38,467 nucleotides of DNA from a virus (IMGVR_UViG_2850796239_000007:1-38467); one strand, 5' to 3'. Positions 32,884 to 34,597 are shown, counted from the first letter of the stretch. Made by a program: numbers and translations. Notes: generated from the letters alone by a model not told the origin.

Positions 32884-32948
32884 ATGTAAAAACAGCAGCT
32901 CAGTTTCGTGAGCTGCTCAAATTCAAAAATCCCGCAGGAGTATTGTGA
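32640..32948 (+). CDS. -1 frame extension ORF of tail chaperone (possible frameshift product)
   Basis: open -1 frame begins right at T8 run 32645..32652 and ends at tape-measure start. Confidence 0.3.
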
Positions 32949-33787
32949 TGGCTGGTAACCAGATGCCAGTTCTGACGCTGGATGTTAATGAAGAACACCT
33001 CAGGCGGCTTGAGGCGATATTTGAAAAGTATCGCAACGGACTGATGATTGGCCCTGCCGGTACGCCGCTTAAAATACCTTCAAATACCGGTCCGGGAGGT
33101 GGCTCTTGGCAGACAACCACAGGCGGAGAAGCCAATCAGGCTCCCAGGAAACCATCTTCACCCGCGCCAGTTCTGGCTGCTTCCACTGATGGACGTTTAA
33201 GGGATGAAAAATGGCGCTTTGTTGGCAGCGGGAAAACACCTGATTCGCTGGTGAGCAACTATAAAGGTCGCGGCGAAACGATGTTTGATAAGTACCTCAG
33301 CGGGCTGGGGAAAAACGCCAAACAGACGCTGAAAACTTACAAGCAGATCAATTCTACGCTACGGACGACCACTTCGAGATTAAACAACCTGTTTAAAACC
33401 ACCATATCGTGGGGGACAAAACTTGCGGTTATGGGCGTTGCCGGGCCGTTTGGCTTTGGCATGATGGCTCGTAATGTTGTAGAGAAACAGAAAAATGCTG
33501 ATGAATTGCAGGCAACTCCAGGAGAGTTAAAGGCGGCAGAAAGCACTTATTCGCCTTATTTTTCCGGTGTTGGTAATTTGCTCAATACACTGGCAGCCGC
33601 GCAAAATGACACTCAGCATCCTGCCTACAACGGGCTAATTGGATTAGGGATAAATCCTAAAAAAGGGGCAGCAGAAAATCTTCCTGTATTGTTAGAAAGA
33701 GTTGCTGCTCTTGCAAAGGAGTATGAGGGAACCGGACTTACTCAGAGCATGCTCAGAGGTCGTGGCCTTGGATGGGTAAATTTTGGT
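32948..33787 (+). pseudogene. tail tape measure protein, N-terminal part only
   Basis: hydrophobic and Gly-rich segments; ORF fuses in frame into IS911 orfB fragment. Confidence 0.5.
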
Positions 33788-34346
33788 ATCCCTAACTACC
33801 TTGAAAGGCAGTTCGCCGTGACCGAGCCAAATCAGGTGTGGTGCGGTGATGTGACCTATATCTGGACGGGTAAGCGCTGGGCGTACCTCGCCGTTGTTCT
33901 CGACCTGTTCGCAAGAAAACCAGTGGGCTGGGCCATGTCGTTCTCGCCGGACAGCAGGCTCACCATGAAAGCGCTGGAAATGGCATGGGAAACCCGTGGT
34001 AAGCCCGGCGGGGTGATGTTCCACAGCGATCAGGGCAGTCATTATACGAGCAGGCAGTTCCGGCAGTTATTGTGGCGATACCAGATCAGACAGAGTATGA
34101 GCCGGCGCGGAAACTGCTGGGATAACAGCCCAATGGAACGCTTCTTCAGGAGTCTGAAGAACGAATGGATGCCGGTGGTGGGTTACGTAAGCTTCAGCGA
34201 GGCAGCTCACGCCATAACGGACTATATCGTTGGATATTACAGCGCACTAAGACCGCACGAATATAACGGTGGGTTACCCCAAACGAATCGGAAAATCGAT
34301 ACTGGAAAAACTCTAACTCGGTGGCCAGTTTTTGTTGACCACTTCA
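33787..34346 (+). mobile_element. IS911 fragment (3' part of orfB through right end)
   Basis: matches 37291..37850 region in reverse orientation; ends with GTTGACCACTTCA. Confidence 0.75.
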
Positions 34347-34597
34347 CTGTTACGACAACGCTCCGATGGAAAGCTTCTGGGGAACGCTGAAAAATGAGAG
34401 CCTGAGCCACTATCGTTTTAATAACCGGGATGAAGCCATCTCAGTAATACGGGAATACATTGAGATTTTCTACAATCGTCAGCGTCGTCACTCTCGTCTG
34501 GGGAATATCTCCCCGGCAGCCTTCAGGGAAAAATATCATCAGATGGCTGCTTAAAAAAAGAACAAATGGTAGTGTCCGCTATTGCCAGTACACCTCA
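34347..34597 (+). mobile_element. IS600 fragment (last about 250 bp including right inverted repeat)
   Basis: identical to 3697..3947. Confidence 0.8.

What the first reader, a model, noticed from the sequence alone, without database searches (positions are those of the whole stretch)
32948..34597. Tape measure gene fused to an IS911 fragment followed by an IS600 fragment
The tape-measure ORF reads directly into the middle of IS911 orfB (junction about 33787); the IS911 right end then abuts an internal point of IS600 (34347), whose right end is at 34597. Baseplate and fibre genes expected after the tape measure are absent. Nested insertions followed by deletions best explain this.
Basis: seen in the sequence. 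Interest (0 to 1): 0.35.

Follow-up and report, generated by a model that had tools for sequence, protein, structure and literature searches.

The report
IS-scarred junction truncating a prophage tail gene
A prophage tape-measure gene is cut off and fused to pieces of insertion sequences, but the DNA beyond it is a different chromosomal island 0.6 Mb away in E. coli K-12, so this is an ordinary Shigella-type insertion-sequence rearrangement scar.

Summary
The probable tape-measure gene (TMP1, starts 32948) runs in frame into the middle of IS911 orfB, crossing over in a 3-bp microhomology (TAT, 33787-33789). The IS911 right end (34346) abuts an internal point of IS600 (34347), and the IS600 right end is at 34597. 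None of the 13 downstream tail proteins of an intact relative is encoded in the window or its fetched flanks.

- The IS600 piece is not a deletion remnant. Its other half lies 4 kb to the right, beyond a full inverted IS911, and the same CTG target duplication proves one IS911-into-IS600 insertion.
- That IS600 sits in a large serine recombinase gene of an unrelated island next to tonB.
- Segment 34347-37290 lies inverted between two inverted IS911 copies. It holds the IS600 3' end, the recombinase 3' end, a Dit-like baseplate gene split by IS2, and the last 67 codons of a second, unrelated tape-measure gene.
- The left flank (yebY) and right flank (tonB) are 612 kb apart and oppositely oriented in K-12, so the site is a large-rearrangement breakpoint.

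About 11.6 kb of tail genes is missing here. Whether it was deleted or moved could not be settled. This is ordinary IS-driven decay, probably in Shigella boydii.

The parts
32948..33789 (+). 5' 842 nt (codons 1-281 of 691) of the probable tape-measure gene TMP1 of a Rac-SA53-like prophage module
   Evidence: It is 99.6% identical to L001 16472-17313. It matches positions 1-281 of the 675-position phrog_7694 profile. In intact relatives it follows the sheath, tube-position and chaperone-position genes.
33787..33789 (.). Crossover point: TAT shared by TMP1 and IS911 orfB, within an imperfect 9-of-12 match (GGTATTGCTAAC vs GCTATCCCTAAC)
   Evidence: Three-way alignment of the window, the intact TMP and IS911 copy B. 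The same junction is present in short-read contigs L006-L008.
33787..34346 (+). IS911 copy A: only the 3' 560 bp (the orfB catalytic part plus the right inverted repeat). About 690 bp of its 5' end is missing. One base is missing from a C-run near 34277.
   Evidence: There are no mismatches and one 1-nt gap against IS911 copy B. RefSeq annotates identical E. coli DNA as IS911. The S. boydii ATCC 9905 draft lacks the 1-nt gap, giving a 463-aa fusion ORF.
34347..34597 (+). IS600 3' fragment (last 251 bp, ending at the right inverted repeat). It begins with CTG, the IS911 target duplication.
   Evidence: It is 100% identical to 3697-3947 of the full IS600 copy. The complementary IS600 5' part ends ...AACTG against the IS911 copy B left end just outside the window (L003 15593-16609).
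34598..34943 (+). 3' end (last 115 codons) of a large serine recombinase gene of the tonB-adjacent island, cut by IS600 (GGA target duplication)
   Evidence: It aligns to residues 393-507 of the 506-aa recombinase of L004. The N-terminal 395 codons lie at L003 16596-17786 on the minus strand, next to tonB. The GGA duplication is shown. The intact protein carries the Resolvase, Recombinase and Zn_ribbon_recom domains.
34975..35409 (-). 3' part of the island's Dit-like 'phage baseplate protein' gene
   Evidence: It matches positions 115-262 of the 265-position phrog_3721 profile. It matches L002 at 78% and another E. coli genome at 97%.
35410..36740 (+). IS2, complete (1331 bp), inserted in the Dit-like gene with a 5-bp duplication ATAGC (35405-35409 and 36741-36745)
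   Evidence: Ends and duplication were read. RefSeq annotates 99.9% identical copies as IS2.
36741..37084 (-). 5' part of the Dit-like baseplate gene
   Evidence: Pfam Dit_like, E = 2e-11. It matches positions 3-117 of phrog_3721. It is 99% identical to L002.
37088..37290 (-). Last 67 codons of a second, unrelated tape-measure gene (TMP2) belonging to the tonB-adjacent island
   Evidence: It is 99% identical to the 3' end of the gene annotated 'tape measure protein' in L002 and in many other E. coli genomes. TMP1 and a full-length island TMP show no meaningful similarity.
37291..38467 (-). IS911 copy B, complete. It runs 72 bp past the window end, and its left end abuts the IS600 5' half.
   Evidence: The inverted IS911 copies A and B bracket the inverted segment 34347-37290.
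32948..34390 (+). Chimeric ORF of 480 codons: TMP1 1-281, then the IS911 OrfB C-terminal core, then read-through caused by the 1-nt gap
   Evidence: ORF list. It is called as one gene in the source record CP026875.1.

Best explanation
The feature is a scar left by several insertion-sequence events at a chromosomal rearrangement breakpoint. It is not a functional unit.

Shown by sequence:
(a) IS600 inserted into the large serine recombinase gene of a small phage-derived island that lies natively between yciI and tonB (GGA duplication).
(b) IS911 inserted into that IS600 (CTG duplication).
(c) A second, otherwise identical IS911 copy lies in inverted orientation at the 3' end of the island's own tape-measure gene.
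(d) The 2.9-kb segment between the two IS911 copies is inverted. The IS600 3' end and recombinase 3' end now point away from their 5' halves.
(e) IS2 split the island's Dit-like baseplate gene (ATAGC duplication).
(f) The left IS911 copy has lost its first ~690 bp. At a TAT microhomology it is joined in frame to codon 281 of the tape-measure gene of a different, IS-riddled prophage that is integrated next to yebY.

Inferred:
- The second IS911 copy arose by a local copy-out/paste-in hop, and RecA-dependent recombination between the inverted copies flipped the segment.
- The yebY prophage and the tonB island were brought together by a large inversion across the terminus region, most likely between IS copies.
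- A later microhomology-mediated deletion then removed the rest of the tape-measure gene, whatever tail genes still lay downstream, and the left part of IS911.

The chimeric ORF is a by-product and very probably a pseudogene.
For: Junction anatomy and target duplications:
- TAT crossover.
- CTG and GGA duplications.
- IS2, 1331 bp with the ATAGC duplication.
- IS911 copies A and B are inverted and identical apart from one 1-nt gap.

Complementary halves outside the window:
- Full IS911, the IS600 5' half, the recombinase N-terminal 395 codons, then tonB-yciA-yciB-yciC-ompW.

Identity of the island:
- The same TMP / baseplate / recombinase / tonB order occurs in complete E. coli genomes.

Identity of the prophage:
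- Window 18134-33796 is colinear with an intact E. coli prophage at 97-99.6% identity.
- The integrase lies beside yebY.

Rearrangement topology:
- In K-12, yebY is at 1.923 Mb on the minus strand and tonB at 1.311 Mb on the plus strand, with no island present. In the source record yebY and tonB are both on the plus strand.

The junction is real:
- It is present in independent short-read contigs.

No duplication:
- The sheath protein occurs once in the source chromosome.

No reciprocal product:
- A query made of IS911 OrfB-N fused to TMP1-C found nothing scoring above ordinary full-length TMP1 proteins.
Against: - The order of events cannot be read from the window.
- The rest of the source chromosome could not be searched, so deletion versus relocation of the tail genes is unresolved.
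- The failure to find a reciprocal fusion is negative evidence from called proteins only.
- The draft assembly of S. boydii ATCC 9905 joins the IS911 fragment to the TMP2 3' end, which is the other orientation of the 2.9-kb segment. Either both isomers exist or that draft mis-joined repeats. The inversion seen here rests on a single finished assembly.
- The 1-nt gap in the C-run may be a homopolymer sequencing error, so the 480-codon length of the ORF is uncertain.
Confidence: 0.72

Rival explanations
1. It assumes one prophage in which IS600 and then IS911 inserted downstream of, or within, the tail region. In-place deletions then removed the left parts of both IS elements and the baseplate and fibre genes.
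For: The nested IS911-in-IS600 insertion is real. The TMP|IS911 join looks like a deletion endpoint. No cognate tail genes are nearby.
Against: The IS600 5' half is not deleted. It lies inverted beyond IS911 copy B, with the matching CTG. IS600 sits in the serine recombinase of the tonB island, which keeps its native junction with tonB. The prophage keeps its native junction with yebY, 612 kb away and oppositely oriented in K-12.
Confidence: 0.1
2. A single reciprocal inversion of about 0.6 Mb occurred by illegitimate recombination at the TAT microhomology. Its endpoints were TMP1 in the yebY prophage and IS911 copy A in the tonB island. On this model the remaining tape-measure sequence and all tail genes survive intact about 0.6 Mb away, joined to the IS911 5' half beside yciI.
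For: The two flanks have exactly the inversion topology relative to K-12. Because the window junction is in frame, the reciprocal junction would also be in frame and would be detectable.
Against: A search with the predicted reciprocal fusion protein returned only ordinary TMP1 proteins (best 911 bits, 86% coverage). No hit covered the IS911 part as well, although the source genome's proteins are in that collection. Inversions through 3 bp of homology are far rarer than IS-homology inversions or short-homology deletions; this last point is established knowledge, not tested here.
Confidence: 0.15
3. The arrangement is an assembly artefact caused by mis-joining of IS repeats in the finished genome.
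For: The region is dense with repeats. A draft of a related strain shows a different join after the IS911 fragment and after IS2. The two assemblies differ by six single-base indels over 11.4 kb.
Against: The unique TMP|IS911 junction is reproduced in three independent short-read contigs. All IS junctions carry coherent target duplications. The repeat that would have to be mis-resolved is only 560 bp. The draft contig itself passes through IS2 into unrelated DNA, so it is the less reliable of the two.
Confidence: 0.03

Closest known systems
IS911 (IS3 family), first described in Shigella dysenteriae
   Same: DNA is 99-100% identical to elements annotated as IS911. The terminal repeat TGAAGTGG... 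is recognised from memory. A 3-bp target duplication, CTG, is present. The orfA and orfB arrangement is present in copy B.
   Different: Copy A is only the 3' 560 bp. It has no left end and no orfA, so it cannot transpose. Its orfB remnant is fused in frame to a phage gene.
IS600 (IS3 family)
   Same: The fragment is 100% identical to the full copy at 2683-3947 and to elements annotated as IS600. A 3-bp duplication, GGA, marks the insertion site in the recombinase gene.
   Different: The element is split in two by IS911, and the two halves now lie in opposite orientations 4 kb apart.
IS-driven prophage decay and IS-bounded inversions in Shigella genomes
   Same: There are many IS copies from several families: IS2, IS600, IS911, an IS5-family element and an IS110-family element. 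Phage genes are interrupted, an inversion lies between inverted IS copies, and the flanks are rearranged relative to E. coli K-12.
   Different: Nothing in kind. The only slightly unusual detail is that the final junction lies inside an IS at a 3-bp microhomology rather than at an IS end or within IS homology.
Escherichia phage Rac-SA53 and related E. coli prophages (e.g. strain GmM062 at the uspF/ompN site)
   Same: The late region from terminase to tape measure is colinear at 92-99.6% identity.
   Different: Here the prophage sits beside yebY with a different integrase. It carries IS insertions and an 84-nt sheath deletion, and it ends at TMP codon 281. About 11.6 kb of the L001 tail region is absent: the TMP 3' part plus 13 tail-region genes.

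Membership tests
IS911 | Near-identity to reference or annotated IS911 DNA | tested here: met
   The region 33790-34346 matches E. coli DNA annotated 'IS3-like element IS911 family transposase' at >=99% identity. It has no mismatches to the complete copy B.
IS911 | Terminal inverted repeat at the junction and a 3-bp target duplication | tested here: met
   The right end ...GACCACTTCA|CTG faces IS600 and CTG|TGAAGTGG... is at copy B's left end. The IR consensus itself is recalled from memory.
IS911 | Complete element with both ends, orfA and orfB | tested here: not met
   Copy A lacks about 690 bp of its 5' end. Copy B, at 37291 to 72 bp beyond the window, is complete.
IS600 | Identity to IS600, ending at the element's right terminus | tested here: met
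   The region 34347-34597 equals 3697-3947 of the full copy at 100% identity. RefSeq annotates such DNA as IS600.
IS600 | A single insertion event with a 3-bp duplication, with the two halves accounted for | tested here: met
   GGA is present on both sides of the recombinase break. The 5' half is at L003 15593-16609.
IS2 | 1331-bp element with a 5-bp target duplication | tested here: met
   The element spans 35410-36740 and is flanked by ATAGC. It is 99.9% identical to annotated IS2.
Phage tape measure protein (TMP1, the gene in the finding) | Position between the tail tube/chaperone genes and the baseplate genes, with a long ORF | tested here: met
   In intact L001 the gene order is sheath (phrog_205), a 143-aa ORF, a 205-aa ORF, the 691-aa ORF, and then downstream genes that include a baseplate hub (phrog_196) and a baseplate wedge (phrog_6).
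Phage tape measure protein (TMP1, the gene in the finding) | Match to a curated tape-measure family model | tested here: not met
   There is no Pfam or NCBIfam TMP hit. Only residues 485-640 hit a PHROG tape-measure family, through a muralytic domain that also matches endolysins. RefSeq names the protein 'lytic transglycosylase domain-containing protein'.
Phage tape measure protein (TMP2 fragment at 37088-37290) | Identity to a gene with tape-measure family signatures | tested here: met
   It is 99% identical to the 3' end of the PGAP-annotated 'tape measure protein' gene in L002. A full-length island TMP carries PF20155 and TIGR02675.
Large serine recombinase | Resolvase, Recombinase and zinc-ribbon domains | tested here: met
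   The intact homologue has all three domains. The source's N-terminal 396-aa piece has them. The window piece aligns to residues 393-507.
Reciprocal chromosomal inversion at the TMP1/IS911 crossover | Existence of the reciprocal junction (IS911 5' half joined to TMP1 codons 282-691) | tested here: inconclusive
   The predicted fusion protein was not found among 5.8 billion protein clusters. The source chromosome itself could not be searched at the DNA level.

The most novel reading that the evidence does not exclude
The in-frame chimera joins tape-measure residues 1-281 to the DDE catalytic core of IS911 OrfB. It is conserved in at least two S. boydii assemblies (480 and 463 aa). It could be expressed from the prophage late operon and could act, for example, as a DNA-binding-deficient transposase fragment that modulates IS911 activity. 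Separately, the 2.9-kb segment between the inverted IS911 repeats may flip back and forth within the population.
Probability: 0.03. Interest if true: 0.35.

Novelty: already known. Interest (0 to 1): 0.12.

Why it matters
It matters little beyond bookkeeping. It is a clean, base-level example of how IS911, IS600 and IS2 dismantle prophages and reshuffle a Shigella chromosome, and of how a window that looks like one decayed prophage can be two unrelated phage-derived elements joined at a rearrangement breakpoint.

For annotation, three points follow.
- The 480-codon 'gene' is a chimeric pseudogene.
- The tape-measure 3' end and baseplate gene 3 kb downstream must not be counted as this prophage's tail genes.
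- The prophage cannot make tails unless the missing roughly 11.6-kb block survives elsewhere.

Tried and rejected
(1) One mosaic gene. I tested whether TMP1-N and the minus-strand TMP 3' end were two parts of a single gene split by IS911, which would need only a 1.7-kb deletion. This was rejected for three reasons.
- The two TMP types show no meaningful protein similarity.
- Their reference loci share no DNA similarity.
- Each piece keeps its native chromosomal neighbour, yebY and tonB respectively.

(2) Tandem duplication junction. This was rejected because the sheath protein occurs once in the source chromosome.

(3) Search for the rest of TMP1 in the source genome. Three homologue searches did not settle it.
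- TMP1-C alone gave a list saturated with about 600 near-identical full-length E. coli proteins.
- A short junction-spanning query retrieved too few candidates, and its top hit was an ordinary TMP fragment.
- The full predicted fusion found nothing above ordinary TMP1.
The result is negative but not decisive.

(4) Look-up of IS911 OrfA to reach other IS911 copies of the source genome. It returned only other genomes.

(5) Look-up of the chaperone-position protein to find an intermediate state in related strains. It found only the same lineage, with contigs breaking at the same IS elements.

(6) Paper search for the accession found nothing.

(7) The S. boydii ATCC 9905 draft contig was examined as a possible ancestral isomer. 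It cannot be trusted across repeats, because it leaves IS2 into unrelated DNA.

Full report
**Observation**

The window comes from chromosome CP026875.1 (GCA_002950355.1, 5.16 Mb; window base 1 = record base 2,963,372). Proteins identical to those of the window are labelled Shigella boydii by their sources.

- Window 18134-33796 is colinear, at 97-99.6% identity, with the late region of an intact prophage of E. coli GmM062 (L001). The only interruptions are two IS insertions and an 84-nt deletion in the sheath gene.
- Identity to the 691-codon gene that follows the sheath, tube-position and chaperone-position genes ends at 33789. Identity to IS911 begins at 33787. The crossover is the shared TAT, within an imperfect 9-of-12 match, and it lies in the middle of IS911 orfB.
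- The frame continues, so one ORF runs from 32948 to 34390.
- The IS911 right end (…GACCACTTCA) is at 34346. Positions 34347-34597 are 100% identical to the last 251 bp of the full IS600 copy at 2683-3947.
- RefSeq annotation of near-identical E. coli DNA supplies the names IS911, IS600 and IS2.
- Three short-read contigs from other samples cross the TMP|IS911 junction by 27-52 nt with identical sequence, so it is not an assembly artefact.

**Is it a tape-measure gene?**

Only by position. In intact relatives the 691-aa protein sits between the tail sheath/tube/chaperone-position genes and the baseplate hub and wedge genes.

It matches no Pfam or NCBIfam tape-measure model. Its C-terminal residues ~520-640 form a muralytic domain that also matches an endolysin and a phage Gp29 chain in the PDB. 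RefSeq calls it 'lytic transglycosylase domain-containing protein'. The window keeps codons 1-281 and has lost that domain.

**What lies to the right**

The DNA after IS600 is not this prophage.
- Positions 34598-34943 (+) are the last 115 codons of a 506-aa large serine recombinase.
- Positions 34975-35409 and 36741-37084 (-) are a Dit-like 'phage baseplate protein' gene. It is split by a complete 1331-bp IS2 with an ATAGC duplication.
- Positions 37088-37290 (-) are the last 67 codons of another tape-measure gene. It is 99% identical to one annotated in many E. coli genomes.
- From 37291 a complete IS911 runs on the minus strand to the window end.

In complete E. coli genomes these genes form an ~11-kb island between yciI and tonB, in the order TMP → baseplate → ←recombinase | tonB. 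K-12 lacks the island. The two tape-measure proteins are unrelated. L001 and the island share no DNA similarity.

**Beyond the window**

The source record continues as follows: IS911 copy B, then the IS600 5' part (1,018 bp, minus strand), then the recombinase N-terminal 395 codons (minus strand), then tonB-yciA-yciB-yciC-ompW in native order.
- The IS600 5' part ends …AACTG against the IS911 left end, and the IS600 3' part in the window starts CTG after the IS911 right end. That is one IS911 insertion with its 3-bp duplication.
- The recombinase is broken at one point, with GGA on both sides. That is one IS600 insertion.
- The two IS911 copies are inverted and identical except for one missing C in a C-run of copy A.

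The segment 34347-37290 is therefore inverted between two inverted IS911 copies. This inversion, not a deletion, is why an 'IS600 fragment' stands alone next to the IS911 right end.

**Chromosomal context**

The window's left end is yebY, followed by the prophage integrase. Further left are yebZ, yobA, holE … eda, edd. In K-12, yebY is at 1.923 Mb on the minus strand and tonB at 1.311 Mb on the plus strand. In the source record both are on the plus strand and only ~41 kb apart.

The truncated tape-measure gene therefore marks a breakpoint with inversion topology between loci 612 kb apart. From established knowledge, these loci lie on either side of the replication terminus. A tandem duplication is excluded, because the sheath protein occurs once.

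**Most likely history**

Shown by sequence:
- IS600 inserted into the recombinase gene.
- IS911 inserted into that IS600.
- A second IS911 lies in the island's tape-measure gene.
- The intervening segment is inverted.
- IS2 inserted into the baseplate gene.
- There is a non-IS-end, microhomology junction between TMP1 codon 281 and the middle of the left IS911.

Inferred:
- The second IS911 arose by a local hop, followed by homologous recombination between the inverted copies.
- A large IS-mediated inversion brought the yebY prophage next to the island.
- A short-homology deletion then removed the remainder of TMP1, the downstream tail genes and the IS911 5' part.

The alternative is a single reciprocal inversion at the TAT. 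It predicts an in-frame IS911-OrfB-N::TMP1-C fusion gene elsewhere in the genome. A search with that predicted protein found nothing better than ordinary TMP1 proteins. The source genome's proteins are in that collection. This argues against the alternative but does not exclude it.

**How much is missing**

Relative to L001, the block absent after the junction is 11,649 bp. It comprises the TMP 3' 1.2 kb plus 13 tail-region genes, including baseplate hub, baseplate J-like, fibre and fibre-assembly genes. None is detectable by tblastn in the window, in 6 kb to its right, or in a 21-kb locus overlapping its left end.

**Caveats**

- The draft of S. boydii ATCC 9905 carries the same TMP|IS911 fusion as a 463-aa ORF, without the 1-nt gap.
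- After the IS911 fragment, that draft continues into the TMP2 3' end rather than IS600, and then leaves IS2 into unrelated DNA. This is either the un-inverted isomer or a repeat mis-join.
- The missing C in copy A may be a homopolymer error.

**Verdict**

The phenomenon is ordinary IS-driven genome decay of the kind long known in Shigella, so interest is low.

Noticed in passing
window 31601-31624 (sheath gene 30561-31814): The sheath gene has an in-frame 84-nt deletion (417 vs 445 aa) between imperfect direct repeats, relative to E. coli homologues. The S. boydii short-read contigs share it.
   Followed up: partly
window 34598-37290 plus L002 and L004: An ~11-kb island lies between yciI and tonB. 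It carries a ~690-aa tape-measure gene, a Dit-like baseplate gene, a 506-aa large serine recombinase and a small invertase, but no other tail genes. It is present in at least 155 of 5426 complete E. coli genomes and absent from K-12. It could be a conserved phage remnant or a satellite-like element.
   Followed up: partly
L018 (S. boydii ATCC 9905, AERN01000081.1) 10836-13649: The draft contig joins the IS911 fragment to the TMP2 3' end, the Dit-like gene and IS2. This is the opposite orientation of the 2.9-kb segment. It then exits IS2 into unrelated sequence. This is either an alternative isomer or a repeat mis-assembly.
   Followed up: partly
window 6100-7024, 8659-9583, 27959-28878: There are three identical copies of a ~0.92-kb IS5-family element. 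Two form an inverted pair around a 1.6-kb segment, and the third is inserted in the prophage late region.
   Followed up: no
window 13754-15210 and 23488-24942: There are two identical copies of a 1.46-kb IS110-family element. The second interrupts the prophage structural module between L001 positions 9293 and 9297.
   Followed up: no
window 2683-3947: The full-length IS600 copy has non-matching 3-bp flanks (…GCCA / AGC…). This suggests it too has taken part in a recombination event.
   Followed up: no
window 16511-17986: A trkG-like potassium transporter gene lies inside the prophage, between the lysis genes and the small terminase gene, as in the K-12 Rac prophage. The identification is from the translation and my own knowledge and was not tested.
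   Followed up: no
window 7616-8257 and 11731-12366: There are diverged direct repeats (78-90% identity, ~4.1 kb apart) covering ORF6N-type antirepressor-like genes in the prophage early region.
   Followed up: no
L025 (CP026836.1 2470948-2477250): In a sister genome that carries the same yebY-side integrase, an IS911 left end abuts a 265-aa C-terminal piece of an island-type tape-measure gene. That piece is 51% identical to the L004 TMP. An intact Dit-like gene follows it, and the locus is not next to tonB. This is an independent IS911 hit in the same kind of gene.
   Followed up: partly
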